Of a stretch of 64,000 bases of DNA, positions 1,081 to 59,411 are shown in pieces. Location of the stretch: contig CM075996.1 of NCBI GenBank assembly GCA_038087875.1, positions 1,490,001 to 1,554,000 of the forward strand, given 5' to 3'. How positions within the stretch are numbered: position 1 is the stretch's first letter; every line of letters begins with the position of its first letter. A program made the position numbers and the translations under genes. This stretch comes from Malacoraja senta (taxonomy: Eukaryota). The notes beneath the pieces were generated by a model that worked only from the letters and a program-made list of their open reading frames with translations, was not told where the DNA came from and did not search any database.

Positions 1081-3440
1081 TTTTCTATTTCACAAATGAA
1101 GCCTTGCCATTGAAAGTGTAAACAAGAAATACTTGGCTTTCTTGACATTCTTCCAGCTGACATCCTGTACAAGTCCCCAATGCAACTCAGGTGTCCTCTT
1201 CAAGCGGCAAATCATTGATACACAGGCACAGTGGTGCAGCTGGCCGAGTTGGTAGAATCTTTCAAAGGGGTCCCGACCCGAAACGCCACCTGTTGTTTGC
1301 CTCCACAGATGGTGCGTGACACACTGAGTTCCTCCAGCACTTTTTTATTTCCTCCAGCACAGTTTATTTTCCAGATACTGCGTGGAAACAGGCCCTTCGG
1401 CCCATCGTGTGGGCACCGACCAGCCTATCGCCCGTACACTAGCTTTAGCCTAGAAACAAAGGGCAATATTACAGCAGACAATTAACCTACAAACCTGCAC
1501 GTCTTTGGAGTGTGGGAGGAAACCGGAGCACCCGGAGAAAACCGGAGCAGTCAGTGGGAGAACGTACAAACTCCGTACAGACAGCACCCGCAGTCAGGAT
1601 CGAACCCGGGTCTCTGGCGCTGTGAGGCAGCAGTTCCAGAGATTCACCACTCTCTGTGAGAAAAATGTTTTTCTCATCTCGGTCCTAAAAGACTTCCCCC
1701 TTTTCCTTAAGTCCAGGGCAAGGGGTCACAGTTTAAGGATAAGGGGGAAATCTTTTAGGACCGAGATGAGGAAAACATTTTTCACACAGAGAGTGGTGAA
1801 TCTGTGGAATTCTCTGCCACAGAAGGTAGTTGAGGCCAGTTCATTGGCTATATTTAAGAGGGAGTTAGATGTGGCCCTTGTGGCTAAAGGGATCAGGGGG
1901 TATGGAGAGAAGGCAAGGGGTATGGAGAGAAGGGATACTGAGTTGGATGATCAGCCATGATCATATTGAATGGCGGTGCAGGCTCGAAGGGCCGAATGGC
2001 CTACTCCTGTACCTATTTTCTATGTTCCACCCCTTTGCTTAAAATTCCAGCATCTGCAGTCTCTTGGGTCTCTATGTAACAATCACCTTTCGTGGATTAA
2101 GTTCTGAATGTCAGCCGGGATCCCTGGAGTATCCTTTCCACCGTTCCCATCGCCCTGAGAGTTCATGTGATAGGAGCAGAATTAGGCCATTCGGCCCATC
2201 AAGCCTACTCTGCCATTCAATCATGGCTGATCTATCTTTCCCTCTCAACCCCATTCTCCTGCCTCCCCATAACCCCCGACACACGTACTGATCAAGAATC
2301 TGTCAATCTCCACGTTAAAAATGCCCACTGACTTGGCCTCCACAGACGTCTGTGGCAATGAACTCCACAGATTCACCACCCTCTGACTAAAAAGAAATTC
2401 CTCCTCATCTCCTTTCTAAAGGTACGATTTATAATTCTGAGGCTGTGCCCTCTGGTCCTAGGCTCTCCCACTAGTGGAAACATCCTCTCCACATCCACTC
2501 AGTCCAGGCCTTTCACTATTTGGAAGGGAACCTGGTTTTAAGATTGCTAAGACATCACACCAGATTTACAGCATAGAGGTGACAGGGTACCGCTCTCTCT
2601 GCCAGTGTTGTGTGCTTGAGTCCATGAGTCGGACTTGAATCAACAACCTTTTCATCTAGGGTGCGAGTACCAATCTCTGGGGGTTCACGAGATTTAGTCT
2701 GAATTACCTGCAGCTGAAAAACACACTTGGCTGATTTCATTCCTGGAAGAAGCTACAAGACACGGATACAATTACGACTTATAAAAGGCATTAGGACAGA
2801 TTTATGGATAGGAAGGGTTTAAAGGGAATTGGGCCAAATGCAGGCAAATGAGACTAGCCCAGTCTGCCAACGGCCGGCATGGACAAGATGGGCCGAAGGG
2901 GCTGTTTCCGCACTGTATAGCTCTGTGACTCTAAAGACGCCGCAGTTTTTACTTGAGTTCCCCTTCTTTGGATGTGGAAAGGACGTTTCCACCAGTGGGA
3001 GAGCCTAGGACCAGAGGTCACAGCCTCAGAATTAAAGGATGTTCTTTCAGGAAGGAGCTGAGGAGAAATGTCATTAGTCAGAGGGTGGTGAATCTGTGGA
3101 ATTCTTTGTCACAGACAGCTGTGGAGGTCAAATCAATGGATATTTTTAAGATAGAGATAGATAGATTCTTAGGTAGACAAACTTGCTGGAGAAACTCAGC
3201 GGGTGCGGCAGCATCTATGAAGCGAAGGAAATAGGCAACGTTTCGGGCCGAAACCCTTCTTCAGATCGATTCTTGATTAGTACGGGTGTCACGGGTTATG
3301 GGGAGAAGGCAGGAAAATGGGGTTAGGAGGGAGAGATAGATCAGCCATGATTGAATGGCGGAGTAGACTTGATGGGCCGATTGGCCTAATTCTACTCCTA
3401 TCCCTTATGACCTTATAACCGTTATTTAAAATGTTTTCAG

Positions 3441-3580
3441 AGAAGCCCCAACCCCCAGAGTCCCTGAAGATCACAGACGTGTGGGGATTCAATGCCGGGA
3501 TCGAGTGGACACCCCCGAAGGATGACGGCAACTCTGAAATCATTGGCTACACAATTCAGAAAGCCGACAAGAAAACTATG
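3441..3580 (+). CDS. MYBPC2: Myosin-binding protein C (probably fast skeletal), FnIII (C9) exon
   Basis: ttttcag acceptor, gtgagt donor; 140 bp encoding (E)[46 protein letters not shown], a typical MyBP-C C9 FnIII segment. Paralog assignment rests on adjacency to EMC10. Confidence 0.9.
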
Positions 3581-3615
3581 GTGAGTGGCTGGCGTTGGTT
3601 GGGTGCGAGATGCCT

Positions 3616-3997
3616 CGAAACATATAAGATTGTTAAGGGCTTGGACACGCTAGAGGCAGGAAACATGTTCCCGATGTTGGGGGAGTCCAGAACCAGGGGC
3701 CACACAGTTTAAGAATAAGGAGTAAGCCATTTAGAACGGAGACGAGGAAACACTTTTTCTCACAGAGAGTGGTGAGTCTGTGGAATTCTCTGCCTCAGAG
3801 GGCGGTGGAGGCCGGTTCTCTGGATGCTTTCAAGAGAGAGCTAGATAGGGCTCTTAAAGATAGCGGAGTCAGGGGATATGGGGAGAAGGCAGGAACGGGA
3901 TACTGATTGGGGATGATCAGCCATGATCATATTGAATGGCGGTGCTGGCTCGAAGGGCCGAATGGCCTACTCCTGCACCTATTGTCTATTGTCTATT
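3616..3997 (+). mobile_element. CR1/HER1 LINE 3' fragment (young subfamily)
   Basis: Near-identical to copies at 8775, 46826 and 48469; ends ctattgtctattgtctattg. Confidence 0.85.
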
Positions 3998-4971
3998 GAA
4001 GCTGCGCTCCTCACTGTAGCAGCGATAAAACACCCTGGGGAGACTGCAGCCGAGGAAATGAAGCAGGGCTTATTGCCGTATTTACAAGCACAGTGAAGAG
4101 CAGGTACAAGGAAGATCTTGCTCGCAGGCAACAGAGACGAACACAAAAAAACATTAATTATACATAACATTCTGCAAGACAGTAAAAAGAAAAAACAACC
4201 GCGCAAGAAAATGCAAGACATTAATGCAGGCTGGGATTTTATTCCTTAGAGCGCAGGATGCTGTAAGGGATGATCTTACAGAGGTGTATAACATAATTAG
4301 GAGAATAGATAGAGTGAATACACAGAGTCTTTTGCCCAGGGTGGAGGAGTCAAAAACTCGAGGGCATACAGTAGGTTTAAGAAGAGGGTGGAAAATTTTA
4401 ATAGGAACATGAGGGGAAACTTTATCATGCATATGGTGGTGGGAATAACAACTGCCAGATCAAGCAGTTGTGGCAGATGCAATAACAACATTTAAACAAC
4501 ATGTGGAGACGCACATGATTAGAAAATGTTCATTGGTTTATGGGCCAAACACAGCCAGATGGGACTAGCTTAGATGGGGCATTTGGTCAGCATGGACATG
4601 TTGGGCCCAATGGCCTGTTTCCGTGCTGTAGAGGTATATATATATATATATATTTTTTTTTTCTCTCTCTTTTTTTGTATGGCTTTGTAAATATTTGATT
4701 AGTGTATAAATATAAATAATTTTTTGTACATATAGCTGCTGGTGTACATATGGTGTACATATAGCTGCTAAATTTGTATCAGATAATTATAAGCAGTTGA
4801 ATAAGGGGTGGGAATTAATAAGCTTTGGCTTCTTCCTGCTCCTTTTCGGACACATACGATTTCATTTATTTATAGATATTGTTTATGACACTCTATAAAT
4901 ATTCTTGTTTTGTTTTTTTGTTTTTTTATGCTGTTTCACACTTGCTTTTTATTCTGTTCGAAATAAAGAAT

Positions 4972-5002
<31 letters not shown>

Positions 5003-5152
5003 TATTTGGTCAAGTGTTTGTGGATCTAAGGTCCAGCACAAGTTCACAAACGGGGAAGGGGAATAGTCTTGCGTAGATTTTGAGCACCTTCTCAGATGCG
5101 TCTGGTCTAGGGTTTGATCAAACGATCAAGATATTTCCACCTTTGCCCGCAG

Positions 5153-5312
5153 GAATGGTTCACAGTTTACGAGCACAACCGCAAGCCCAGTTGCACCATC
5201 TCTGACCTCATCATGGGCAACGAGTACTACTTCCGTGTCTTCAGTGAGAACATCTGTGGCCTCAGTGAGAAACCAAAGGTGTCCAAGAACACGGCCTTCA
5301 TCCAGAAAGAAA
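5153..5312 (+). CDS. MYBPC2: MyBP-C exon, second half of FnIII C9
   Basis: ccgcag acceptor, gtaagt donor; 160 bp encoding EWFTVYEHNRKPSCTISDLIMGNEYYFRVFSENICGLSEKPKVSKNTAFIQKE; phase matches the flanking exons. Confidence 0.92.
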
Positions 5313-5596
5313 GTAAGTGTCATAAGATCATAAGTGATAGGAGCAGAATTAGGCCATTCAGCCCATCAAGTCTACTCTGCCATTCAATCATGGCTGATCC
5401 ATCTCTCCCTCCTAACCGCAGTCTCCTGCCTTCTCCCCATAACCTGACACCTGTACTAATCAAGAATCTATCTATCTCTGCCTTAAATATATCCACTGAC
5501 TTGGCCTCCACAGCCGTCTGTGGCAAAGAATTCCACAGAAAGGGTCAGAAGAAGGGTTCCGACCACAAACGCCTGACCCACCATCCTTTTTCTCCA

Positions 5597-6080
5597 GAGA
5601 TGCTGCCTGACCCGCTGAGTTACTCCAGCACTCTGTGAAACGTCACCTATCCATGTTCTCCACAGAAGCTGCCTGACCCGCTGAGTTACTCTAGCACTCT
5701 GTGAAACGTCACCTATCCATGTTCTCCACAGATGCTGCCTGACCCGCTGAGTTACTCCAGCACTCTGTGAAACGTCACCTATCCATGTTCTCCACAGATG
5801 CTGCCTGACCCGCTGAGTTACTCCAGCACTCTGTGAAACGTCACCTATCCATGTTCCGGCAGCATCTATGGAGCGAAGGAAATAGGCAACGTTTCGGCCC
5901 GAAACCCTTCCGGGTTTCGGCCCGAAACTTTGCCTATTTCCTTCAGGGTTTCGGCCCGAAAGGTTGCCCATTTCCTTCGCTCACAGATGCTGCCTGACCC
6001 GCTGAGTTACTCCAGCACTCTGTGAAACGTCACCTATCCATGTTCTCCACAGATGCTGCCTGACCCAGCTGAGTTACTCC
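5597..6080. repeat. 66-bp tandem repeat derived from the Penelope terminal module
   Basis: About 4 plus 1.5 copies of gatgctgcctgacccgctgagttactccagcactctgtgaaacgtcacctatccatgttctccaca, interrupted at ~5856-5980. Confidence 0.9.
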
Positions 6081-6392
6081 TGTGTCTATCTTCGGTATAA
6101 CCAGCGTCTGCAGATTCTCCCTGCACACCAAGTGTCAGGATTAGCTCTCTTGCGACAGGTTGTTGTGGCATGGCCCAAATGCCACCATGGTTGAGGGCAC
6201 TGCCTGACGTGGCATGGCTTGGAACTTTGCCTCGCGATAAATAGCCTCCCCCCTCCATGGACCAGTCCAACAGCATCCACCTCTGGATGGAATGATGCAC
6301 CAGCTTCTTAGTTTAGAGGTACAGTGTGGAAACAGGCCCTTCGGCCCGGCATACGTGACTGGTCGGATGCTAACTCTTCCCTGTTTCATCAG

Positions 6393-6528
6393 GCAAGAAC
6401 TACGTGCGGCCACCGTACAAAGAGCATGACTTTAGCCACGCGCCAAAATTTACCCAGCCGCTGTTAAATCGCTCTGTGGTCGCTGGTTACTCGACAAAGC
6501 TGAGCTGTTCTGTTCGAGGCTTCCTAAG
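6393..6528 (+). CDS. MYBPC2: MyBP-C exon, linker and start of Ig C10 (apparent 1-bp deletion at the 3' end)
   Basis: tttcatcag acceptor, gtgagt donor; encodes KNYVRPPYKEHDFSHAPKFTQPLLNRSVVAGYSTKLSCSVRGF. It ends ttcctaag where ttc-cct-aag (FPK) is expected. Not in the ORF track. Confidence 0.88.
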
Positions 6529-6837
6529 GTGAGTGTGTGGTTTCAGAAGGTTCTTTTTAACTATACCACCTTTTGCGATATACCAAAGAGGCAAGTCTAA
6601 CAGATGTTGAATTCTCCAGTTTTTGTTAACGACATAATCCTCTCCCTTCTTCACCCCCTAACCCCATCCCTATTTCTCCCCCTTTTTCTACCCAACCCCA
6701 CCTCCCCCCCATCTATCCCCCACCTCCCCCATCTATCCCCTTCCCCTTCTCCTCTGTGGCCACTCTGGGTCTCTGTTTCCGCACGTATCTCGAAAGTAAA
6801 AAGTAAACAGCAAGTGCGATTGTTATCCCAAATACAG

Positions 6838-7024
6838 CCGAAGAATTGTCTGGATGAAGAACAAGGTGGCGATCGGACGAGGACCCCAAGTTCCTGATGA
6901 GGCACAACGAGGGCGTTCTGACCTTGCAGATACGCAAACCCGCAGCTTTGACGGTGGGAATTACACTTGCAAAGCCATCAACGACCTGGGCGAGGATGAG
7001 GTGGAATGCAAGCTGGAGTGAGAG
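6838..7024 (+). CDS. MYBPC2: MyBP-C exon, Ig C10 (myosin-binding) domain, containing apparent indels
   Basis: atacag acceptor, gtaggc donor. Frame-corrected peptide [60 protein letters not shown] requires four single-base frame corrections. Confidence 0.85.
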
Positions 7025-13980: not shown

Positions 13981-14184
13981 ACAAGTTCATAAGTGATAGG
14001 AGTAAAATTAGACCATTCGGCCCATCAAGTACACACTGCCATTCAGAAATGATGGCTTATCTATCTCTCCCTCCTAACCCCATTCTCCTGCCTTCTCCCC
14101 ATAACCCCTAACACCTACTAACCTCCATCATCTCTGGTACCATTTTTGTGGTCCCTCCATCTTTGTGGTCCATTACTGCGGTCC

Positions 14185-15230
14185 CACCAGTCTCAAATTG
14201 GATCCTCGACTTCCTCATTCACAGACCACAGTGTCCGTATTGGTGGAAATGTGTCAGCCTCGATAACAATCAGCACGGGAGCACCTCAAGGCTGTGTGCT
14301 CAGCCCCCTGCTGTACTCACTCTATACTCATGATTGCGTAGCCAGTCATAGTGCGAACTCCATCATCAAGTTCGCAGACGACACCACTGTTGTGGAACGT
14401 ATCACTGATGGAGTTGAGTCAGAGTATAGAAGTGAAATCAACCGTTTGACCAAATGGTGCCAGCACAATAACCTGGCCCTCAACACCAGCAAAACCAAGG
14501 AACTAATTGTGGACTTCGGAAGGGGTAGGATGGGGACCCATAGTCCCGTTTATATCAATGGGTCGATGGTGGAGAGGGTCAAGAGCTTCAAATTCCTGGG
14601 CGTGCACATCTCTGATGATCTCTCCTGGTCCGAGAACACGGATGCAATTATAAAGAAAGCACATCTGCGCCTCTACTTCCTGAGAAGATTACGGAGAGTC
14701 GGCATGTCAAGGAGGACTCTCTCGAACTTCTACAGGTGCACAGTAGAGAGCATGCTGACCAGTTGCATCGCGGCTTGGTTCGGCAACTTGAGTGTCCAGG
14801 AGAGGAAAAGACTACAAAAAGTTGTAAACACTGCCCAGTCCATCACCGGCTCTGACCTCCCTTCCATTGAGGGGATCTATCGCAGTCGCTGCCTCAAAAA
14901 GGCTACCGACATCATCAAGGACCCACACCATCCTGGCCACTCACTCATCTCCCCGCTGCCCTCAGGTAGAAGGTACAGGAGCCCGAAATCTGCAACATCC
15001 AGGTTCAGGAACAGCTGCTTCCCCACAGCCATCAGGCTGTTAAACTCAACTTCAAACAAAACTCTGAACATTAATAGCCCATTGCACTTTATCTGTTTAT
15101 TTATTTATGTGTGTATATATATATATATATATATTCAATGGTATATGGACACACGGATCTGTATTCATGCCTACTATATTCTGTTGTGCTGATGCAAAGC
15201 AAGAACTTCATTGTCCTATCTGGGACACAA
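14185..15230 (+). mobile_element. Rex1/Babar-type LINE, 5'-truncated RT and C-terminus
   Basis: ORF 14146-15192 has [42 protein letters not shown] and RLYFLRRL motifs; open frame suggests a young copy. Confidence 0.88.
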
Positions 15231-15984: not shown

Positions 15985-16500
15985 CTGAATCCCGGCATGC
16001 CGCTCGCCGTTGGTCCTCCAGTATCCCGTCATGCCTCAGCCCGTGTCCCACAGTGCATTGTGTTGTAGTTCAAGATCGCCCCGCTGTAGTTCTATTGCCG
16101 TTGCCGCCGCTCGCCGTTGGTCCTCCAGTATCCCATCATGCCTCAGCCCGTGTCCCACAGTGCATTGCGTTGTAGTTCCCGATCGCCCCGCTGTAGTTCT
16201 ATTGCCGTTGCCGCCGCTCGTCGTTGGTCCTCCAGTATCCCATCATGCCTCAGCCCGTGTCCCACAGTGCATTGTGTTGTAGTTCCTGGTCGCCCCGCTG
16301 TAGTTCTCCAGCCGTTGCCGTTGCCGCCATGGAGCCGCGCGGCGGGGTGATGGCCAGCGGCCTCCTTCTCCTCAGCGTCTTCGGCGCCGGCCTGTGCAAC
16401 ACCCGGCGGGTGAGTGAGTTAGTGGGGGAGTGAGTTAGTGGGGGCGAGGGGCGGCTGAGGTGGTTCACGTCGCCGCTGTGTAAACGGACAAGGCCCCTGT
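15985..16500 (+). promoter_or_regulatory. EMC10 CpG-island promoter/5' region with three 107-bp tandem units carrying ZNF143(SBS)-like motifs
   Basis: High CpG density; three copies at 107-bp spacing, each with TCCCRTCATGCCTC, TCCCACAGTGCATTG and TGTAGTTC. Confidence 0.6.
16329..16409 (+). CDS. EMC10: EMC10 exon 1 (signal peptide)
   Basis: Perfect Kozak gccgccATGG in a CpG-rich island; MEPRGGVMASGLLLLSVFGAGLCNTRR is signal-peptide-like; gtgagt donor, phase 0. Confidence 0.88.
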
Positions 16501-21255: not shown

Positions 21256-23733
21256 GGGCAATTCCATAATTTCGGACGTACATTTCAGACACTTAAATGA
21301 GTTGCCAATGGAAAAATAATTACAAACAAGGAATTTTTATTTGACCAATACGTGACATCTACTGAGTAGAAAACAATTACAGATATAAATATAGTACAAA
21401 CACCATAATGACCTTGTACTAATTTAAAAACACCATGTGGTCGGATGTACACAGAAAAGTGCGTTTTTCTGACATTGGAAATTCAAGTGAAAATCTCTGA
21501 AGTGTACTGGCTTTTTCCTCAAAAATCACATAACCATTTCAGTTAGATGTCAAATGATGAGAAATGGCAAGAATAATGTGTCATCTCTACTTTCAAGTAA
21601 TGAATAATTAAGTTTTTTCTTTGTGTCGGACGTACAATGTCGGACGTACAGTACTGTTGTGTCGGACGTACATGTGTGCATGTCTATTTGTTGCAGACAT
21701 TTGTTGGTAATTAAGCCCTTATTACATCACTAACTACTTGACTTTGTCTTACATGACAAATGAAACACACCATGGGTAACATTACTTATTGATAATATTA
21801 ATGACATTTATAAAGCACTTAATACAATACCTTATGTTTCTAAGCGCTGTGAACAACAACCAAATATTACAAATATCACAAAACTCAGCAAAACGATATC
21901 AAACTTAAACAAAAGAAACCTCATCAAACACAAAACAAAGAAAATAACTATTAACCATATACTTGACAACACTTCAACATTAAAATGGGTTTAATGTATT
22001 TGACAAATAGATTTTCATGTACAGTCTGCATTGGGATCATGTTATTAGATCTGTAACATCTTTTCCCATCAGATTTATTAAATTGAAAATAAAGCTGCTC
22101 ATAAATTTGAGATCTGGTATATAATTCTGTGTATTGGAGTACAATTTGAATGCTGTTAATGCAACTGTAAAAGTAACATTTAATCCAACAACTTGAGCAT
22201 ACTTACTGAATTGTCATGCCTTCAAACAATGGCAGAACATTCTCGCAAATTGATTCTTTCATTCCTCTCACACATTGCACAAGTGAATATTGTTTATATT
22301 TTAATGACTCAGAATTAGAAACAAAAACACTAAGGAACATGTGAAAAGATTATAACCAAGGTATTTTAATACTTTTTTTAGCTATCCTGTACATGCATGG
22401 TCACACAGAAAGGGGTGGAGGATCTTAGGGAAAAGGGCGTAGAAAGTAAAAATGTACTGTTCCCTGCTGCCAGCGACCACTGGTGGAGATATTTTTTTGA
22501 TAACATCTTTCCTGAAATAGAAAATTTGATCTGGGTGTTGTGGCCATCTCCAGTGCCCACCTGCTTGATTATTAACATTGACCTTGAGATCAGTGTTATT
22601 GGGACCAAATTCATTGACTTCACCAGGGAAAGTGTCCCCTTGATAGGCAACCAGCACCCTGTCCCCAATTTGTATTTGTAATTCATCACTTTCATCATCA
22701 GATGATTCATTCATGCTGTCAAGGGACTCATTGAGATCCTCAACCTCTCTGATGCGAACATGCCGGTCGGTACTCGCTACTGTTGGACACGTCACTGACA
22801 AACAAGTGATGTTGTCCAACTGGTACCACACTATGAATTTTGTGCGTGTTTGGTATAGGTATTGTGGTTTGCCAGAATGCCTCCAAATTCTCTCTCTTCT
22901 CTGCAATCGCTTCTTTGGAAATAAACATGATCTCAATGGTAGGGTTTCTGTGAACTGCAACTTCATAGGAAGTAATTGGCGTTGATGCCGTTCCTTTCCC
23001 ACTACGGCTTCACACTATTGAAATTATGATCTTAGTAAACTTGTGTTGGAAACAAAGTTTTATTAATTATAGTGCTACACACTTATAATGATGCAGAGAC
23101 ATTGTGCTGTAATTACAAGGCCTTAAGGCATATTAATATGGCAGAAACTTATTCATTGTAAATGCCGTGTCGGACGTACATGAATATATGATGTCGGACT
23201 TACAAAAAAAAGTGTACGTCCGACCACACATTTTTTCCTTAATTAGAGATAATTAAATAAATCTAATGTACAGTCTTTGCAGAGGATCTAAAACTTGCTT
23301 TGCATTGAGATCGTGCAGTTAATTGGGTTCTTTGTCTTTTTGTAAAATTAAAAAATCACGTTTTTTTGTGTCGGACGTACATGACCAAAGTACATATAAT
23401 ATTATATGTAATAAATCATAACTTTTAAAAGTTTCACATTTTCTAATGTATGATCATGGATACATTGGTTATACTGTTTATATCTATCATAGTGAGTGAC
23501 ATAATTCACTTAATTTTCTTTTAGAAAAAACAAAAAGTTAAATAGTACAATATATTGGCTGTCTTTGAATGCTTCCGTCGGAGCAGTCTGGTGACCTTGA
23601 ACTTGCTCCAGTGTATCTGTAACTTGCATATTTTGATAGTTCACATCTTTACCTTTAAAATGATATAACATTTGAACCAATTTGATTATTTAGAAAATAT
23701 GGCCTACTGGTTGCCATATTTATGGAACTGCCC
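21256..23733 (-). mobile_element. Internally deleted TIR DNA transposon (Sola-like, tentative) with transposase C-terminal remnant
   Basis: TIRs GGGCAATTCCATAA and reverse-complement GGGCAGTTCCATAA; nine subterminal TCGGACGTACA-type motifs; frameshifted ORF remnant 22382-23002 (-). Confidence 0.65.
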
Positions 23734-26701: not shown

Positions 26702-26768
26702 CCTGGAGACGTTCTAGATCCTGAGGTTGCAGGCGTGTCTGTACTCCTTGAACACTCGTTTGAATTTG
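26702..26768 (+). CDS. EMC10: EMC10 exon 2
   Basis: ctttcag acceptor, gtaagt donor; PGDVLDPEVAGVSVLLEHSFEF matches the EMC10 LLEHSFE motif; 67 bp. Confidence 0.92.
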
Positions 26769-27688: not shown

Positions 27689-27801
27689 ATGATAGCGTGC
27701 GTTACAAAAAAAGAGGTACGTTGCTGTGGAGACCAGGCCGTGAAAACTCTCTCACATTATCTCAGATGCAGCTGACAGAGGATGAGAGGGTCAAACTCAG
27801 A
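27689..27801 (+). CDS. EMC10: EMC10 exon 3
   Basis: ttgtag acceptor, gtaagt donor; (D)DSVRYKKRGTLLWRPGRENSLTLSQMQLTEDERVKLR; 113 bp. Confidence 0.93.
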
Positions 27802-27934
27802 GTAAGTGATTATACATTCTTGTACTTCCTGAAGCGACTGCTGGAGAAGTGTCTTCAAACTAACAAGTACCATTTTTATTCTGTGGAAGCAAGGAACTGC
27901 AGATGCTCGATTACAAAAAAAAGAGATAATTTAT

Positions 27935-29296
27935 GTTGCTTATGCCTTACCTACACCAATATACCATCCTGGAAACATTCCAATCAGGTTTCAGGGTCCA
28001 CCACAGCACAGAGTCTGTCTTGTTGAAGGTACATAACGACCTACTTCTCACCATTGACTCCGGCGACTGTGCAATCCTGCTCCTTCTCGACCTCAGCGTA
28101 GCATTTGATACAGTCGACCACACCATCTTAATTGACCGTCTCCGGTACGGGGTTGGTATTGATGGCTCTGCCCTGAGCTGGTTCGTCTCCTACCTCAAAG
28201 ATAGGAGTTTCTCTACAAACATAGGCAACTCTTTCTCCTCCCCAGCTAGCCTCTGCTGTGGGGTTCCACAAGGTTCCATCCTTGGCCCCATTCTCTTCTC
28301 CCTGTACATGCTCCCCTTAGGCCAAGTTATCCAAAGACACGGCATTTCCTTCCACTGCTATGCAGACGATACACAACTCTATCTCCCCCTGAAACCCAAC
28401 AACCAATCAAATCTACTCAGCCTTATCCACTGCCACGAGGATATAAAGTGTTGGATGGTCCAGAACTTCCTCCAACTAAACGAAAGTAAGTCTGAGGTCA
28501 TCCTACTCGGCCCCTCGGACTCAATCAAAACGATAGCAGGCAGCCTTGGAAGCCTTACCCCATTACTCAAATCTCATGTTGAAATTTGACAAACAAGTCA
28601 ATGTCGTGGTAAAAGCTAGCTTCTTCCAGCTTCGGACGATAGCTAAAATAAAACCATTCCTCCAATTTGTCGACCTCGAAAAGATCATCCACTCATTTAT
28701 CTCCTCCCTCCTTGATTACTGAAACTCCCTTTACACTGACATCAGCCAATCATCCCTGTCCCGCCTGCAATTGGTCCAAAATGCCGCAGCGAGACTTCTG
28801 ACGGGCACCCGAAAAAGGGACCACATCACCCCGATCCTGGCCTCTCTCCACTGGTTCCCAGTGCGGTTCCGAATCAATTTCAAGCTCCTTCTTTATGTTT
28901 ACAAAGCCCTTAATGGGCTTGCCCCCACCTAGATCAAAAATCTGCTTACCCACCATACTACCTCCAGGTCCCTCAGATCGGCCGACTTGGGGTTACTGAC
29001 TATCCCACGGTCTAGGCATAAGCTCAGGGGCGACCGCGCTTTTGCGGTTGCAGCCCCTAGACTATGGAACAGCATCCCTCTTCCCATCAGAACTGCCCCC
29101 TCCATCAAGTCTAGACTTTAAACTTATTTCTACTCTCAAGCCTTTCTTGAGGTCCTCTGAGGGAGCGCTGTATTGTATGTATTTATGTATGTATTGCTGA
29201 TCTATGTACCACTGTTTGTAGCACTAATGTAAAGCACTTTGGTCAACAAGATTTGTTTTTAAATGTGCTATAGAAATAAAATTGACTTGACTTGAT
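27935..29296 (+). mobile_element. L2-clade LINE, 5'-truncated RT with disrupted C-terminus
   Basis: [37 protein letters not shown] and YADDTQLY motifs; ends AATAAA plus (ttgac)n tail. Confidence 0.88.
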
Positions 29297-30737: not shown

Positions 30738-30836
30738 GATATGGCTGGTTCAGACGGGTTGTACCGGATTAGAATCCCAAGAAAACTAGGCAGTGAGAGT
30801 TCTACTTCGGATTATGTCTCATCCTTTGTTCGAATA
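30738..30836 (+). CDS. EMC10: EMC10 exon 4
   Basis: cgcttag acceptor, gtaagt donor; DMAGSDGLYRIRIPRKLGSESSTSDYVSSFVRI; 99 bp. Confidence 0.93.
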
Positions 30837-40097: not shown

Positions 40098-40279
40098 TGC
40101 GCACTGGTTGAGTCTCACCTCTCTGATGTGATCACAGTTAACACAGATGTGTCTGGCAATATCATCGGTGTTTCCATAGTAACTATCCCAGGGTCCTGCA
40201 ATGGAGCCGAGGTGGAAGATGTGGATTTGGAAGTGTTTAACACAACTGTGCACCTCATGCAACCAGTACTGGCGGCAGC
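40098..40279 (+). CDS. EMC10: EMC10 exon 5
   Basis: tcttcag acceptor, gtgagt donor; [60 protein letters not shown]; 182 bp. Confidence 0.95.
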
Positions 40280-43638: not shown

Positions 43639-44104
<466 letters not shown>

Positions 44105-46825
44105 TGAAATGGAATGCCTTAATTTAGCAGAATTACTGCACCCATAACTAAATCCTACCAAAGTATTGCTAATCTATAGCAAATGCTAAACAATATATGT
44201 ACTTGATATTTGTTATGTAGCACAGGTTAGAGTGTGATAGTGTCAATATGCACAGAGGGTGCAATTGATCTGTGAAATGGTGGTGAAATAAAAACCAAAG
44301 TCTTCTAAATTGTTCCCTGCAGTCAGATAACCCTGCCATGAAACACACCATAATCGCATCAAAGAAAGCTATATGTTTCCCTTCCATTAATCTATAGTAT
44401 GACATAGTTCTCTTTAATATATAGTACAGACATTAGAATTTGGATCGTGGCTGTTGATGTGCATGGGCTTGGCTTTGTGCGTTTGGCCATTGTGTGTAAG
44501 AGAGTGATAGGGTGTGGAGCAATTGATTGCAACTTGGGCAGGATAAAAAGGGATCAGTATGGGATTAATTGAAGGACCTGGTGGGCCGAAGGGCCTGTTT
44601 CTATGTTGTATGTGTCTATGAACTAGCTGTGGTCAGCCATGTGATCATGATCAGCCATGGCTCGAAGGGCCGAATGGCCTACTGCACCTATTGTCTATTG
44701 TGAGCTAAGGGCAATTGACAGCTGTGAACTAGAAAAGGAGAGAATAGAAAAAGGAATAGTAGAAAAATAAATCTTTTAACACACCCACCCCCTTTCAAAC
44801 AAGTAATATTTGTATATGTTATGAATAGTGCAAGCTTCATTATTTCTGATGTCACTGATGCATCTTTTGAGGTGTTGCTATCATAATATTAATGCACAAT
44901 AACAGGAAATATTAAATATATTAAACACTCATACTGTTAATAGTAAAATAGGCAAGATAGGATTGCAGATAATTGAACAGGAGGAAGCAAATTATGAATG
45001 AAAATGAGAAAACAACAGTCTAACATTTTGCATGGGGTCAACGTGAGTGGGAGAAGATATTGAGCTGAACATTTTTGCTGATCCCTCTCTCTGTTGAGTG
45101 CTGATTGCAGTGACAATCACTGCAAGCGAGTTCATTGCAAATGTGGTCAGATGTAGATAGATGGCCCCATCTTCTATCATTACTGCTGGAAGCATCTTCT
45201 GACCGTCTGGGAATTGGCAGTGATCCAGAAACTTGACACTAGGAACTTGATGGAAATCTGTCTCCATCTGGAGACCATTTCTTGGCATGGCTGCTTTTAG
45301 TAATTGAACTATTCCTGGGCCTGTGCTCTTGTTGAAGTGGCCGGCACTTCATTTGGTTATTAATGCCTGAAATTAATGAAAGATTTAGTAACTGTACTTG
45401 GATTCATTACCAGGTTTGGATTCTTGTATGAATTGTAGATTCCTCATCCATGCTTTTCTATTCCCCTTGTTCCTCTTTGACGCTGACTCTTCAACACCAG
45501 AGTGCAGTTCTGCAGGTGTCAGCATTTCTTTAATGCACTGTCCAAAAAGTCATTCTTCAAACACAAAATGAAATGATATAATTTTCTGCCTGTGATCTTC
45601 CTTTTCTCTGTTGATTAAAAAATACATTTTTATGGGTGAGAGGAGAAGTTCTGAGCTGATGAGTGTGAAAGACTGATTGGGAAGAAAGCACACTTGCTCA
45701 GTGATCACTGTTGAATCTGATTCTGAATCCATTCTGCTTTCACATCTCACCAGTCAACACTGGATGACCAGACGTCTGACAGCTCTAACTTTCTTCTGAC
45801 GCAGGCAGCAGTAATTGCAGTTTCTTCCTTGCACATCAGCTGGCTATTCAAACATTCTCCTCACTAGACAGGTGTCCTTGCTTCCCCACCGATATCATGT
45901 GGTTCTGGCCAGGACCGGGGACCAGGTCAGTAATAATGCCCCAGTTGCAGCTGCAAGCAGCTGATGGCATTGACTGGGGTTCTGACCTCCATGCTTTGTA
46001 AACTTTGCTCATTAGACAACCTCAGCAGCAGGAGAAGAAGAACCCTGATGTTTTAATGAGGAATTGCAAGGAGGATCTGTGACTGGAATCCTTCGACACA
46101 GAAGTAAGCAAATTCACTGCAGAATGTCCTTAAAGAGTTGTCAGTGGGGAGGAGTCATTGATTTCATTGTACTCTGAGTTCTGAGCTGTTTCAAACTGCT
46201 GACTACTGCAGTGAATGTGACCTGACCTGCTCACCAGAAACTAATGTATTCATTTGGTGACGGGATTAAATGGAGCACAAACATGTTCCATGCAGTAATA
46301 CATTTACGGCTACAAATAATGCGTTAAACCGCATTAGTGAAGTTCATTAAGTTTCAGGAATCGTGTTCTCCGGAGACTGCTGTAGTTCTAATCACGCTGT
46401 CATGCATTATTTATTTTTATAACATATTGTTTTAATATTTTATCCATTTTTGGCGATATTGCATCGGAGTTGTTCTTATTTTCAGGAATCTTTGATCAAA
46501 TATTAGATGGTTAGAGAATTATTTTGTTTGTCATTCACTTCTGAAGGTGTCCATTCGAGCTGAGATACATTTTCCGAATTGCTGTCAGCCCTGTCCCTCT
46601 TGATTAGATTAATAGTGAATCTACATCCAAGCCCATTGTTCCATGGACTGGGGCCATGCAACATGGTGCAAACTCTGTCCTTCCACCCAAGGGTGGTGAG
46701 ATTATCTGGTGCTCACTCCCAGCGTCCCAGCTGTGAATCAGCTATGCTGTTCACTCCCAGCTGTGAATCAGCCGCCATCTAGCTTAGCCTGTGTCGTTCA
46801 ATGCCATGCTGAGAAGTTCTTTAAG

Positions 46826-47264
46826 CTGAGAGAATGGAGCGGTTGGGCTTGTACACTCTGGAGTTTAGAAGGATGAGAGGGAATCTCATTGAAACATATA
46901 AGATTGTTAAGGGCTTGGACACACTAGAGGCAGGAAACATGTTTCCGATGTTGGGGGAGTCCAGAACCAGGGGCCACAGTTTAAGAATAGGGAGTAAGCC
47001 ATTTAGAGCGGAGATGAGGAAACACTTTTTCTCACAGAGAGTGGTGAGTCTGTGGAATTCTCTGCCTCAGAGGGCGGTGGAGGCAGGTTCTCTGGATGCT
47101 TTCAAGAGAGAGCTAGATAGGGCTCTTAAAGATAGCGGAGTCAGGGGATATGGGGAAATGGCAGGAACGGGGTACTGATTGGGGGTGATCAGCCATGATC
47201 ACATTGAATGGCAGTGCTGGCTCGAAGGGCCGAATGGCCTACTCCTGCACCTATTGTCTATTGT
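46826..47264 (+). mobile_element. CR1/HER1 LINE 3' fragment
   Basis: ORF 46834-47178 is a CR1 ORF2 C-terminus followed by the 3' tail. Confidence 0.88.
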
Positions 47265-48409
47265 CTGAGAGGGAAAGATTTAAGAGTAACCTGAGGGACA
47301 ACTTTTTCACACAGAGGGTGGTGATAATATGGAATGAGCTGCCAGAGGAGCTTCCTGTTCAGGAAGATACTATAAAAGCATTTAAAAGGATTTTGAACAG
47401 GTCCGTGGATAGGAAAGGTTTAGAGGGATACAGGCCAAACAAAGTTAGGTGGGAGTAGTGTAGATGAGGCATCTTGATCGGCATAGTCGAGTTGGGACGA
47501 TGGGCTGTGTGACTCTGAGCAGTCTGGGAAATAGACACAAAAAGCTGGAGTAACTCAGCGCATCAGATCTCTGGAGAAAAGGGAAGTAGTATAATCAACC
47601 CACAGATAATAAATGACCCGTAGAGGCACGTATCAACCACAATTGACAGCTCGGGCTTCTGTGCACTTATGGCAGCACGATGGATTGATGTTTTGAAATG
47701 CGCTGCTCCAAGTAAGAGCAACTGAGGTGCTAGCCCTTTAACATAGTCTGCAGCATCTTCTAACTCAGTTCTGGTTCACTTCTGTGCCTCTGCTTTGTTG
47801 ATGGAGCCCCCTCTTGGTTCTACGGGTAAATATAACGCCCTGACATGGTCGCGGAAAGGCATGTAATTTAAAATGGGGAAAGTAACATTTTGAAACATTA
47901 ACAACTAGAAAAGGGCAATGAGAGTAAGCATAAAAATAAACGTTGCCAAATATTGCAGAGGAAATGAATAATATGGAAAGAAATGCAAGGAACTGCAGAT
48001 GCTGGTTTACCAAAGAAACTCAGTGGGTCAGGCAACATCTCCGGAGAACATGGATAGGTGACTTTTTGGGTCGGAATGCTTCTTCAGATTATGGATTATG
48101 AAAATTGAGAATGTGGAAAGAAAGCTAGATGAATTTTATCAGTTTGATAAGTACTGCGGCATAAAAGTTACAAGTTACAGTTAACATGTTCCCCGCTGAA
48201 TTCCTGTCATGCTACATTAAGCAAGATGCAAATGTTGTTGAGGCTAACATATCTGGTTTGGAGGTTGAACTTGTGTTTACTGCAGTAGTGTTGTTTTTGA
48301 TGGATCAATAGAGGTCCATCTCCTGTGATTGAACCTCATGACTTGAAAAGTGATAATGGAATTTATTTCACTACCTGAACAAGAGAACTATTGCAATTTG
48401 CGCATATTG

Positions 48410-49440
48410 TCATAAGTGATAGGAGTAGACTTAGGCCATTTGGCCCATCAAGTCTACTCCGCCATTTAGAAGGATGAGAGGAGATCTTATTGAAACGTAT
48501 AAGATTATTAAGGGATTGGACACGCTAGAGGCAGGAAACATGTTCGCGATGTTGGGGGAGTCCAGAACCAGGGGCCACAGTTTAAGAATAAGGGGTAGGC
48601 CATTTAGAACGGAGATGAGGAAACACTTATTCACACAGAGAGTTGTGAGTCTGTGGAATTCTCTGCCTCAGAAGACAGTGGAGGCCGGTTCTCTGGATAC
48701 TTTCAAGAGAGAGCTAGATAGAGTTCAAAGATAGCAGAGTCGGGGGATACGGTGAGAAGGCAGGAACAGGATACTGAATGTGGATGTTCAGCCATGATCA
48801 CAGTGAATGGCGGTGCTGGCTCGAACAGCCGAATGGCCTACTCCTGCACCTATTGTCTATTGTCAATCATGGCTGATCTATCTCTCCCTCCTAACCCCAT
48901 TCTCTTGCCTTCTCCCCATAACCTCTGACACCTGTACTAATCAAAAATCTATCTCTGCCTTAAAAATATCCACTGACTTGGCCTCTACAGCCTTCTGTGG
49001 CAAAGAATTCCACAGATTCACCACCCTCTAAAGAAATTTCTCCTCATCTTCCTAAAAGAACGTCTTTTAATTCTTATGCTGTGACCTCTAGCCCTAGACT
49101 CTCCCACTAGTGGAAACACTCTCTCCACATCCACTCTAACCAAGCCTTTCACTATTCTGTATGTTTCAATGAGGTCCCCCCTCATTCTTCTAAACTCCAG
49201 CGAGTACAGGCCCTGTGCCGACAAATGCTCATCATGGGTTAACCCACTCATTCCTGGGATCATTCTTGTAAACCTCCTGTGGACCCTCTCCAGGGCCAGC
49301 ACATCCTTCCTCAGATATGGTGCCCAAAACTGCTCACAATATTCCAAATGCGGCCTCACCAGCACCTTATAGAGCCTCAGCATTACAGCCCTGTTTTTGC
49401 ATACTAGCCCTCTTGAAATAAATGTTAGCATTGAGTTTGC
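48410..49440. mobile_element. Nested CR1/HER1 fragments (+ strand copy ~48469-48863 inside a - strand copy)
   Basis: ORF 49018-49473 (-) contains LYKVLVRPHLEYCEQFWAPY; ORF 48474-48734 (+) is a second CR1 copy interrupting its tail. Confidence 0.85.
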
Positions 49441-50014
49441 TAATGTGTCAGACAATGCTGCAGGGATGCTCATTAAAACAGCATCTACAAATAAAAGGTT
49501 AGCAATTCAATAATTCTCCCTTGGGTAGAGAATCCACCACATGACTTACTGTTTGGTGAATCCAGTAGCGTTAATTATGAGTGAGACGTTTGGGCGATCC
49601 CATGATAGGGTTTGTCAGTACATTCCCTCTGTAGTAAGTCAGCCCACCAACAGCAGTGGCCTGGGTGCACGTACGCATGTGCAAGGTACTAGATGGTGAC
49701 CCTACAACCAACACACCATAGCAAGACAAGAACAACATCTAGAAAGGGAGAGAAGGAACAGGCCCTTGTGCAATGACGTGGAGATGTTTTGTGATATAAT
49801 GGGCTTCACACGACCACCTGCATTAATGGAACTACTGCAAAATGTACAAAGGAATGGCTTGAAATGTTCTTGACACACAACAGGCGGAGAACGAAGAAGG
49901 ACATCCCTAAAAGCTGCTATTGTGAACCAACCGGTCGTTCGATGTTGCTTGTCTATTGCCTAATCCTGTGTACCATTTGTATCTGTATCTTTATTTCTGT
50001 TTTCTTTTATGCAG

Positions 50015-50077
50015 TGGCATTTAATTCTGGGCGGGGCCATCTTTCTCATGATTACAAATAACGTCCAAGCGCCCTGA
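50015..50077 (+). CDS. EMC10: EMC10 alternative coding exon (secreted/soluble-isoform-type C-terminus)
   Basis: Long pyrimidine tract then atgcag|TGG; phase 0 after exon 6; encodes WHLILGGAIFLMITNNVQAP*, resembling the recalled human soluble-isoform end WHIILGGAVLL... Confidence 0.8.
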   Translation, partial: WHLILGGAIFLMITNNVQAP

Positions 50078-51789
50078 GAACTAGCAGCACAAGCATGACG
50101 TCTACAAAGTAATGGTGGTTCCCAATTATCTCCAAGACATTGTGTGCAGTGGCAAGCAAGGTGCTATTCACTTTATTATTAAGGTCAAATGATTATTTCC
50201 CCTTATACCAAATATCCAGACCCTCTCTTTTGATTCTCAGCGATCCTTAGCTGTGGACGAGTAAACTTTATTTTTAGAGAGATAAACATGAGGTGGCTAA
50301 AAGGCTTCTGTTGGGACAAACCTTTGCAACTTGTAGCCACTGGTTGTCTTTAACAGGGCAGGCATGATTCCAGTCATTAAGAAATCTTTCTGTTTGCTGG
50401 ATAGACAATTTAGTGCATTGTGGAAACATCTTTGCACCATAAGACCCATCAGGCACAAGTGGTTGTTCATTGGAAAGTAATATTCTAAGTGTGAAACGTT
50501 TCCAAGTGTTTAAGGTTCCACCTGGCATTCAGCCTTCTGGTGTGGGCTTGCTGGATGACTTCTTTGATGTAGCTTTGTGTAAATCATTTAGTTTAAGATG
50601 TATTTCGTTTACACTCTCCAAAAGACATTTTGATTTGGAGCCGCTAACAGGTGACGTGGCTATGTGCTCATTTCTATTTTTTTTCCCTTAATTTCTGTGC
50701 TGAACGCGATGAAATATGTAAAGTCGTAAATATCATTTGACCTTTAATCATTTGTTTGACACTTGCACACTTCCTTATTTTTCTGGGTGGAATTGCTTCT
50801 GGTGTGATACAAACTGCACCAATGCTTGACATTAGTACGCCTTCATTCATTGACTCATGGTGGCATTGGTCATGTGAACCTTCGCTCTTTGCCTCCTGGT
50901 GACGGTTACTCCATTACTCGCATTTTGGCTGAACCATGACAGTTTTTGCAGCCACCTTGAAAGTTAATTTGTTGCTCCTGCGAGTAATTTAATCGTTTAT
51001 CCGTGAGAACTCGTGTTGCATTTCAGGTGGCTGCAAGTACAGGGCTGCGGGGATTGTAGTTGGCTGGAAAATCAGCGACAGAAGTCTTCGTAAAGATTGG
51101 GTGAAAATAAGTTCCTGAGAAGGATCCAGGACAAATATATACTAGTGCCAAAGAATTGGAATTTAATTGGCGTTGGAAATTCTGGGCAAGTTGTGACCCT
51201 TTGGGAATTCTTGATTAGTAAGAGTGTCAAAGGTTATGGGGAGGAGGCAGGAGAATGGAGTTGAGAGGGAAAGATAGATCGATAATAGACAATAGGTGCA
51301 GGAGTAGGCCATTCGGCCATTTGAGCCAGCATCGCCATTCAATATGATCATGGCTGAGTAGATGGCGGAGTAGAAGCGATGGGCCGAATGCCCTAATTCT
51401 ACTTCATCATTTTATGAACTTATGGAGAAAGTTCAGTCACCTGGGAGACTTTTCTGTTCTGTCGAGCTGTCATTCTTAACTGGTAGTGATCTAATTTTAT
51501 TTTCCTTTCCACTGCTGTCTAACATACCAAAGAACTTGTACCCATGATAGACATCAGGCCTCGTCATCATTCACACCGTGCCTTTTTAAATGAAGGGTCT
51601 GAAGCACTTTCTAATGACATATCAGGCAGCCTGAATGACATGACAGACGGAAAGATCTGCGGTTCTATTCTTCGACCATACTAAGTTTGGTTTTTCTCTC
51701 CTCCCCTGGAACAAATCGGTCATAGTTCCATCATTACTAGAAAAAAAAATGTTATGGTGAGATGTGGTGGAAATGGACTTTGGTGATTT

Positions 51790-58429: not shown

Positions 58430-58575
58430 GCTCCAGCACTCTGTGAAACGTCACCTATCCATGTTCCCCACAGATGCTGCCTGACCCGCTGAGTTACTCC
58501 AGCACTCTGTGAAATGTCACCTATCCATGTTCCCCACAGATGCTGCCTGACCCGCTGAGTTACTCCAGCACTTTG
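58430..58575. repeat. 66-bp Penelope-derived tandem repeat (third locus)
   Basis: Same unit, about 2.2 copies. Confidence 0.88.
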
Positions 58576-58817
58576 TGTCTTCCTTTATCAGTGGCAGGGA
58601 TGATAGGGTTGCTTTTTGTAGATGCTAGCTCTCCCACCATGGTTTTAAACCAATTCCTCAACTTGGCTTTATAAAATGAGTGGCATTGTGCACTGGATAC
58701 AAGAACAATGCTCTATCACAGCCTTGTGCTCGTTCACTGACCTGTCTCTCACTCGCTGTTTCTGCAGAGCTTGGTTAGTCTGAGGTTGACCTGCTTTTCC
58801 TGCCTTTCCTTTCACAG

Positions 58818-58913
58818 TGGATGTACATCGTTCCCATCGTGATTTTCCTGATGATGTCGGGCGCACAGGACCCTAACGGGGGCAGCGGTGGCTCGGGCGG
58901 AGGTGGGAGGTGA
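58818..58913 (+). CDS. EMC10: EMC10 terminal exon (membrane isoform: TM helix plus Gly-rich tail)
   Basis: ttcacag acceptor; [31 protein letters not shown]; joined CDS is 732 nt = 243 aa plus stop. Confidence 0.95.
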
Positions 58914-59101: not shown

Positions 59102-59411
59102 AATAAAGTACATTACTGTTTGTTTGTGATCCTTCATCGCAGAACTCCTTTCCAGCCACTAGTTGCCACCAATGCACTGTAGTTTAACAAGGTCGGTGAA
59201 CAAGTAACGGGTTCAAGGTGAGCATGTGCTCTCACTTGTGTTGGTTCTTGCATACGAAGCCTAAACTCCTCAGTGTTGCCACTGTTTATGCATTACCTGT
59301 AGTAGGTGTCTGAACAAACTTACCCCAAGTGTATGGTGTTCTGAGACAATAAATGGAAATTACTGAGAGGCTGTGATAGTTGTAAATGTATTCTGTCATG
59401 TCTCCAATAAA
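59102..59411 (+). terminator. Candidate EMC10 polyadenylation signals
   Basis: AATAAA at 59102, 59348 and 59406, downstream of the stop and before repeats resume near 59460. Confidence 0.55.

What the first reader, a model, noticed from the sequence alone, without database searches (positions are those of the whole stretch)
50015..50108. Hidden EMC10 alternative exon: the secreted-isoform (scEMC10/HSS1-type) C-terminus in a cartilaginous fish
Seen in sequence: in the 14.7-kb last intron, a repeat-poor island holds a branch-like ctaat (~49960), a long pyrimidine tract and AG|TGG. In phase with exon 6 it encodes WHLILGGAIFLMITNNVQAP*, giving a 232-aa isoform. A possible donor gtaatg at 50109 lies ~31 nt past the stop, which would be compatible with escaping NMD. 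Established (recalled from memory): human EMC10 has a membrane isoform ending WMYIIPVVLFLMM... and a secreted isoform ending WHIILGGAVLL... with reported hormone-like activity. Inference: the two-isoform switch predates the shark/bony-fish split. Both exons start with W and share I(F)LM, so they may be an ancient exon duplication. This version is fairly hydrophobic and might be a second membrane anchor rather than secreted.
Basis: partly seen in the sequence, partly recalled or inferred. Interest (0 to 1): 0.75.

Follow-up and report, generated by a model that had tools for sequence, protein, structure and literature searches.

The report
Ancient alternative EMC10 exon, shortened here
This skate gene carries the same alternative exon that in humans makes a secreted form of the ER protein EMC10; the exon is as old as vertebrates and already in gene databases, but this lineage has gained an early stop codon in it.

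Summary
The exon is real. The acceptor at 50015 is the top match of 8571 AG sites in the window to a profile of non-chondrichthyan tails (44.8 bits, next -6.9). It is the orthologue of the human scEMC10/HSS1 exon. It is not hidden: RefSeq 'isoform X2' models carry it in 10 of 22 chondrichthyan species seen, and in two lampreys; 7 of 7 amphioxus entries have only the membrane tail. In-register likeness to the membrane exon supports tandem duplication. First, the TGA at 50075 is derived (CGA in 3 of 3 relatives' runs), cutting a conserved 27-residue tail to 20 and removing every charge. Second, the donor may be 50161, not 50109 (one contig, weak hint), which would put the stop 83 nt before the last junction and expose it to NMD. 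Splicing in this species and secretion are not shown; hydropathy cannot separate 'secreted' from 'second anchor'. The scan's earlier findings hold nothing on EMC10.

The parts
16329..16409 (+). EMC10 exon 1 coding part (hydrophobic N-terminus, presumed signal peptide)
   Evidence: tblastn; GT donor and open joined frame; signal peptide is by homology, no predictor run
26702..26768 (+). EMC10 exon 2
   Evidence: AG/GT
27689..27801 (+). EMC10 exon 3
30738..30836 (+). EMC10 exon 4
40098..40279 (+). EMC10 exon 5
   Evidence: matches human EMC10 chains in PDB, E about 1e-21
43978..44071 (+). EMC10 exon 6, last common exon, ends in phase 0
   Evidence: matches human EMC10 196-226, E 3.4e-12
49960..50014 (+). 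Branch-like ctaat, pyrimidine tract and AG acceptor of the alternative exon
   Evidence: two relatives carry 10+5 extra letters at 49986-49987
50015..50077 (+). Alternative exon, coding part in this species (20 codons and TGA)
   Evidence: Amblyraja radiata X2 tail is identical at 25 of 27 positions over the ancestral length
50075..50077 (+). Derived stop: TGA where relatives have CGA (Arg)
   Evidence: C at 50075 in runs X2, X4, X21; T with no C row in X1; Arg in 7 and Gln in 3 of 10 elasmobranch proteins
50078..50098 (+). Six formerly coding codons and the ancestral stop, now untranslated
   Evidence: aligns to the Pristis, Narcine, Heterodontus and Heptranchias tails
50109..50114 (+).
   Evidence: the X21 contig runs through it without a break
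50161..50166 (+). Candidate donor 2; 4 of 9 matches to the U1 consensus; would make a 146-nt exon
   Evidence: X21 contig 22 fits 50012-50160 and has 30 letters that do not fit, read as lying beyond 50160
58818..58913 (+). Last exon, membrane (mEMC10) tail, 31 codons and stop; AATAAA at 59102, 59348, 59406

Best explanation
A pan-vertebrate cassette exon in the last intron of EMC10. It arose by tandem duplication of the ancestral membrane-anchor exon after the split from amphioxus and before the split of lampreys from jawed vertebrates. Skipping gives the type I membrane subunit of the ER membrane complex (243 aa here). Inclusion swaps the anchor for a weaker hydrophobic segment with His/Tyr at position 2 and a nearly invariant Gly-Gly, followed by a stop, so the last exon becomes 3' UTR. 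By analogy with human HSS1/scEMC10 this form most likely fails to stop in the membrane, is not held in the complex, and is secreted whole. In this skate lineage a CpG change (CGA to TGA) removed the last 7 residues and all C-terminal charge, which should if anything favour release into the lumen. Shown: exon sequence, orthology, age bracket from database models, derived stop. Inferred: duplication, cassette structure, inclusion in this species, secretion.
For: Profile scan. 123 tails of this type among the 204 proteins held, with W1, I4, L5, G6, G7 in at least 122 of 123. Lamprey X2 models. Zebrafish isoform 2 is an NP_ record. Among the 145 new representatives, 92 had a readable tail: 88 membrane-type, 3 this type (all with the vertebrate exon-6 motif), 1 other. 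Fixed-register match of the two window exons is 6 of 15, shuffle p 0.003-0.006 without the first W, and no other offset has more than 1 identity. Against a profile of 84 distant membrane tails, 9 of 10 tested tails give p below 0.003. Cassette: three frameshifted mammalian models read from this exon into other frames of the last exon at the position of the normal stop (P0194-P0196); no AATAAA or ATTAAA in 50078-51300. C-terminally His-tagged human HSS1 is found in the medium (PMC3052511 section 21).
Against: No joint 44071-50015 or onward to 58818 was seen in any run; only the island was laid. Hydropathy barely separates the tails (KD19 mean 1.44 against 1.68; recalled Hessa scale 0.08 against 0.07). 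The uncharged run is 17-20 residues in elasmobranchs against 14 in mammals, so secretion may not carry over from mammals. The human tail alone does not pass the duplication test (p 0.052), and a shared upstream KY motif could select the first W independently. PMC3052511 draws the exon as an alternative last exon, not a cassette. 12 of 22 chondrichthyan species showed only other isoforms. The two coding differences from organism J are both protein-changing and both on this lineage, a small hint of relaxed selection.
Confidence: 0.6

Rival explanations
1. Outside mammals the exon is a second membrane anchor: the isoform stays a type I membrane protein with a different helix (Gly-Gly in place of Pro), and secretion is a mammalian innovation that came with Arg at position 15 and a proline-rich tail.
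For: Uncharged run 17 in lampreys and most elasmobranchs, 20 in Amblyraja, 24 in teleosts, against 17-18 for the membrane tails and 14 in mammals. The AlphaFold model of the Amblyraja isoform has one helix over 203-230 (pLDDT 64-81 by block). Descent from a membrane helix.
Against: KD19 of the window tail (1.56) is closer to human scEMC10 (1.51) than to its own membrane tail (1.76). The first 11 residues are almost the same as in the secreted human form. A helix in an AlphaFold model says nothing about the bilayer.
Confidence: 0.22
2. In skates, or at least in this lineage, the exon works mainly as a poison exon or is decaying: with the donor at 50161 the stop lies 83 nt (62 nt for the ancestral stop) before the last junction, so inclusion triggers NMD and tunes EMC10 levels rather than making protein.
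For: The X21 contig runs through 50109 and stops fitting at 50160, next to a GT (GT frequency 0.065 per position), with 30 unfit letters, as expected for a 31-mer graph joining a shared downstream exon. Distances. Derived stop plus Thr-to-Asn on this lineage with no silent change against organism J. The 50-55 nt rule is established knowledge, recalled.
Against: One contig, one study, another species; the run is labelled 'RNA? (probably DNA)'; the loose letters were not displayed and their side is inferred from the table's convention; the contig begins at 50012, three letters inside the intron, with no exon-6 overhang. Ten elasmobranch models are kept as coding and the peptide is conserved to lampreys. 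In mammalian models the junction sits at the stop. Acceptor and hydrophobic core are intact here.
Confidence: 0.18
3. The TGA at 50075 is an assembly error or a private allele, and the species makes the ordinary 27-residue tail.
For: Only one run of this organism was laid (X1), it may be the assembly's own sample, and contigs drop rare variants.
Against: X1 has one unbroken contig over 49559-51200 reading T with no C row; it differs from the window at 49673, so it is not a mere copy of the assembly. CGA to TGA is the expected CpG change, and the same codon is Gln in 3 sharks.
Confidence: 0.1
4. Chance open frame in an intron.
For: None beyond its shortness.
Confidence: 0.005

Closest known systems
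RefSeq XP_032869508.1, EMC10 isoform X2 of Amblyraja radiata (and X2/X3/X4 models of nine other sharks and rays)
   Same: Same exon, same place after exon 6; 25 of 27 tail positions identical to the window read over the ancestral length.
   Different: Arg where the window has a stop, Thr where it has Asn; 27 against 20 residues. These are computed models; their donor is not visible from the protein.
Human scEMC10 / HSS1 / EMC10-2 / INM02 (NP_778233.4, 254 aa)
   Same: Same gene, shared luminal domain, tail swapped after the KY motif, 8 of the first 11 tail residues identical. Described as secreted in PMC3052511 (passages and section 21 read), PMC9705309 and PMC7188443 (passages read).
   Different: Human tail has Arg at 15 and a proline-rich end (28 residues); the window tail has no charge and 20 residues. 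Secretion and activity are shown for mammals only. In three mammalian models the junction sits at the stop; here it is 31 or 83 nt away.
Membrane EMC10 / HSM1 last exon
   Same: Phase-0 exon starting with Trp; 6 of 15 identities in register. Type I topology shown for human EMC10 (PMC10200711, passages).
   Different: Pro6 replaced by Gly-Gly, Met-Tyr by His-Leu; no glycine-rich cytosolic tail; DNA identity only 21 of 45.
Tandem exon duplication-derived C-terminal substitutions such as KRAS4A/4B (catalogue of PMC8373072)
   Same: Homologous alternative C-terminal exons, upstream one with its own stop, vertebrate age.
   Different: EMC10 is absent from that catalogue's supplement (0 hits for EMC10, EMC or C19orf63; FGFR2 and KRAS found as controls); homology is barely detectable in the human tail.

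Membership tests
scEMC10/HSS1 isoform | Encoded by EMC10 and shares exons 1-6 | tested here: met
scEMC10/HSS1 isoform | Alternative exon between exon 6 and the membrane exon, in phase | tested here: met
scEMC10/HSS1 isoform | Tail homologous to the human secreted tail | tested here: met
   8 of first 11 residues; profile score
scEMC10/HSS1 isoform | Exon is spliced into mRNA in this species | tested here: inconclusive
   no joint seen; one contig of a relative covers 50012-50160; RefSeq models in relatives
scEMC10/HSS1 isoform | No functional transmembrane helix | tested here: inconclusive
   KD19 1.56 against 1.51 (human secreted) and 1.76 (own membrane tail); no TMHMM-type predictor available
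scEMC10/HSS1 isoform | Stable mRNA (stop close to last junction) | tested here: inconclusive
   31 nt with donor 50109, 83 nt with donor 50161
scEMC10/HSS1 isoform | Protein secreted and active in circulation | not testable with these tools
   shown for mammals only, in the papers read
Tandem exon duplication-derived substitution | Detectable homology of the two exons in one register | tested here: met
   (9 of 10 tails p below 0.003; human 0.052); the null is a composition shuffle, not a set of unrelated membrane helices
Tandem exon duplication-derived substitution | Same splice phase, adjacent in the gene, outgroups with one copy | tested here: met
   both phase 0; amphioxus 7 of 7 entries membrane-type only, from protein models, not genomic DNA
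Poison (NMD) exon | Stop more than 50-55 nt before the last junction | tested here: inconclusive
   depends on donor
Poison (NMD) exon | Inclusion form rises when NMD is blocked | not testable with these tools
   needs experiment

The most novel reading that the evidence does not exclude
The exon behind the human 'hormone-like' scEMC10 is an uncatalogued duplicate of the membrane-anchor exon that arose at the base of vertebrates. In non-mammals it may still be a membrane anchor or be coupled to NMD, with true secretion a mammalian change; this skate's stop gain, which strips all C-terminal charge and may push the transcript into NMD, is a natural experiment on that transition.
Probability: 0.25. 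Interest if true: 0.55.

Novelty: new member of a known kind. Interest (0 to 1): 0.3.

Why it matters
scEMC10 is studied as a circulating factor and antibody target in obesity and heart repair (PMC9705309, PMC7188443; passages read), yet those papers speak of the gene's conservation, not the isoform's. Conservation of the tail from lamprey to human argues that the isoform is functional and about as old as vertebrates, and its likeness to the membrane helix raises the question whether 'lacks a transmembrane domain' is the whole story. The finding itself adds one more species to a set already annotated in RefSeq; the new items are small: the duplication origin, the derived stop and the uncertain donor.

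Tried and rejected
Sequencing-run search: no RNA holder listed; not used for or against expression. Reads were laid on the repeat-free island only, so joints to exon 6 or the last exon could not appear; 336 loose-end rows and 63 difference rows were not displayed; contig depth (13.9 on the exon, 2.8-4.1 on X21's intron pieces) is not taken as an expression level. One search used the wrong frame and is void (redone). Idea that mouse has a 198-nt NMD-type cassette, from '975 bp' against '777 bp' in PMC9456234 section 2.1: dropped, because 264 aa needs 795 nt, so the figure is probably a misprint; the supplement that would settle it is an unreadable ppt. GPI-anchor reading of the uncharged 20-residue end: rejected by recalled omega-site rules (no small residues at the needed places); no predictor was run. 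Intramembrane cleavage at Gly-Gly as the route to secretion: disfavoured for human, because the C-terminal His tag is recovered in the medium. Terminal exon with its own poly(A) site: no AATAAA or ATTAAA in 50078-51300. Stop readthrough or selenocysteine: no evidence, and relatives have plain Arg. Ten paper searches listed no paper on the non-mammalian isoform, its duplication origin or NMD of EMC10; some searches were loose and dominated by papers without EMC10, and the library lacks most subscription papers. PMC8933327 (passages) lists emc10 as differentially spliced in a reef fish during a heatwave without naming the exon in the passages seen. No complex prediction was run.

Full report
Gene and observation. 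The window holds EMC10 on the + strand. Exons 5 and 6 match human EMC10 chains in the PDB, and tblastn of elasmobranch proteins gives six common exons whose AG/GT ends join to an open frame of 636 nt. The closest proteins are from skates. A profile built from 113 non-chondrichthyan tails scores 44.8 bits at 50015; the next of 8571 AG sites is the membrane exon at -6.9. The feature is not chance.

It is already annotated in relatives. Of 22 chondrichthyan species whose EMC10 proteins appeared have a model with this tail (Amblyraja, Pristis, Narcine, two Mobula, Heterodontus, Heptranchias, Cetorhinus, Rhincodon, Stegostoma); 12, including Callorhinchus, Leucoraja and the catsharks, showed only other isoforms, which is not evidence of loss because only protein models were seen. 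The tail also occurs in lungfish, bichir, sturgeon, gar, teleosts (zebrafish NP_001157390.1), amphibians, reptiles and mammals. Among 204 proteins held, 123 were of this type, 69 of the membrane type and 12 unclassified. The exhaustive profile search added a representative that proved to be Petromyzon marinus isoform X2, with Lethenteron in the same cluster; 7 of 7 Branchiostoma entries have the membrane tail only. Of 145 new representatives, 53 had no readable tail motif, 88 were membrane-type, 3 this type and 1 other. The switch therefore dates to the vertebrate stem, bracketed by protein models only; hagfish and tunicates were not identified.

Origin. Both exons are phase 0 and start with Trp. 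In register the window's two exons share 6 of 15 residues (shuffle p 0.0003; 0.003-0.006 without the Trp), and offsets of -4 to +4 give at most 1. Against a profile of 84 distant membrane tails, 9 of 10 tested tails score above composition shuffles at p below 0.003; the human tail does not (0.052). The sturgeon tail even keeps the proline. The membrane type is ancestral. Tandem duplication is the simplest reading; the null is a shuffle, not unrelated helices, and DNA identity is only 21 of 45. EMC10 is not in the human catalogue of such events (PMC8373072: abstract, outline and supplement searched).

All 10 elasmobranch tails are 27 residues, with Arg (7) or Gln (3) at position 21. The window reads on past its TGA through six conserved codons to a second TGA at 50096-50098. 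Runs of three related organisms read C at 50075 and C at 50061; the run of the window's own organism has one contig over 49559-51200 with T and no C row. So a CpG change created the stop on this lineage, next to a Thr-to-Asn change. Organism J differs at three places in 50012-50160: these two and one in the untranslated part. The result is a tail with no charged residue. Only 2 of 123 tails are shorter than 25 residues. X1 may be the assembly's own sample, so fixation in the species is not shown.

The 3' end is open. Three frameshifted mammalian models read from this exon straight into other frames of the last exon after 29 codons (P0194-P0196), which shows a cassette of about 87 nt ending at the stop, outside the reach of NMD by the recalled 50-55 nt rule. 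PMC3052511 instead draws two alternative last exons (passages). In the window there is no poly(A) hexamer in 50078-51300, and both candidate donors are weak (5 and 4 of 9 against 5-7 for the constitutive ones). In run X21, labelled 'RNA? (probably DNA)', one 179-letter contig fits 50012-50160 and has 30 letters that do not fit; by the convention of the other minus-strand records they lie beyond 50160, where a GT begins, while the contigs of X2 and X4 run on unbroken. That is what a splice at 50161 into a shared exon would leave in a 31-mer graph. It is one contig of another species, the letters were not shown, and its start three letters inside the intron is unexplained, so it is a weak hint. 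If right, the exon is 146 nt and the stop lies 83 nt (ancestrally 62 nt) before the last junction.

Secreted or anchored. Human HSS1 with a C-terminal His tag is found in the medium of transfected cells (PMC3052511 section 21); reviews and later work call it TMD-less (PMC7188443, PMC9705309, passages); human membrane EMC10 is a type I protein with a flexible helix (PMC10200711, passages). Best 19-residue Kyte-Doolittle means are 1.56 for the window tail, 1.51 for human scEMC10, 1.37 for lamprey and 1.76 for the window's membrane tail; a recalled Hessa scale does not separate the two types. The uncharged run is longer in fishes (17-24) than in mammals (14). The AlphaFold model of the Amblyraja isoform shows a helix at 203-230 and disorder after it, which fits either. 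I put secretion or poor retention first by homology, a second anchor at about 0.2, and NMD or decay in this lineage at about 0.2.

Novelty. The isoform is known in mammals and modelled in databases from lamprey to skate; this is one more member, with a lineage-specific truncation. Ten searches of the held library listed no paper on its age, duplication origin or NMD; several key EMC10 papers are outside that library and were not read, and the supplement of PMC9456234 could not be opened. PMC9456234 was read in passages and section 2.1, PMC13241820, PMC8933327, PMC12374974 and PMC9922982 in passages. The scan's earlier findings contain nothing on EMC10. Interest 0.3.

Noticed in passing
window 3419-7018 (+): Last exons of a myosin-binding protein C gene (fn3, fn3, I-set; best single-domain PDB matches MyBP-C). 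MYBPC2 next to EMC10 in human is recalled, not checked.
   Followed up: partly
window 16197-16430 (+): An upstream in-frame ATG gives an N-terminal extension like that of Amblyraja isoform X1 (P0123); it sits at the end of a short repeated array upstream of exon 1.
   Followed up: no
window 22385-23014 (-): A 210-codon stop-free frame inside intron 1 with no Pfam match; possibly a transposon remnant.
   Followed up: partly
window 49986-49987 and 49935: Two relatives carry 10+5 extra letters inside the pyrimidine tract and lack 4 letters upstream of the branch-like site; direction of change unknown; could alter inclusion.
   Followed up: no
window 49442-49558 and 49673: Run X1 has no cover over 49442-49558 and reads G at 49673, so it may be another haplotype or individual.
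   Followed up: no
P0046 (Acipenser ruthenus X2): The sturgeon alternative tail is 20 residues and keeps Val-Pro as in the membrane tail, intermediate between the two types; retention, reversion or conversion.
   Followed up: partly
P0015, P0017, P0018, P0027, P0030-P0033: Several frogs end the alternative tail in a different sequence, apparently a frameshift that reads past the usual stop.
   Followed up: no
P0009, P0011, P0125, P0127, P0146, P0149: Hypanus and Mobula have further EMC10 C-termini unrelated to either exon, probably lineage-specific models; no Hypanus model with the conserved alternative tail was listed.
   Followed up: no
P0212, P0360, P0361: The three bird entries seen have only the membrane tail; whether birds keep the exon was not tested.
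   Followed up: no
window 14122-15189, 27930-29118, 46864-48864, 58431-58577: Reverse-transcriptase-like retroposon frames (recognised by eye), a 400-base 90% direct repeat and a 66-base tandem repeat.
   Followed up: no
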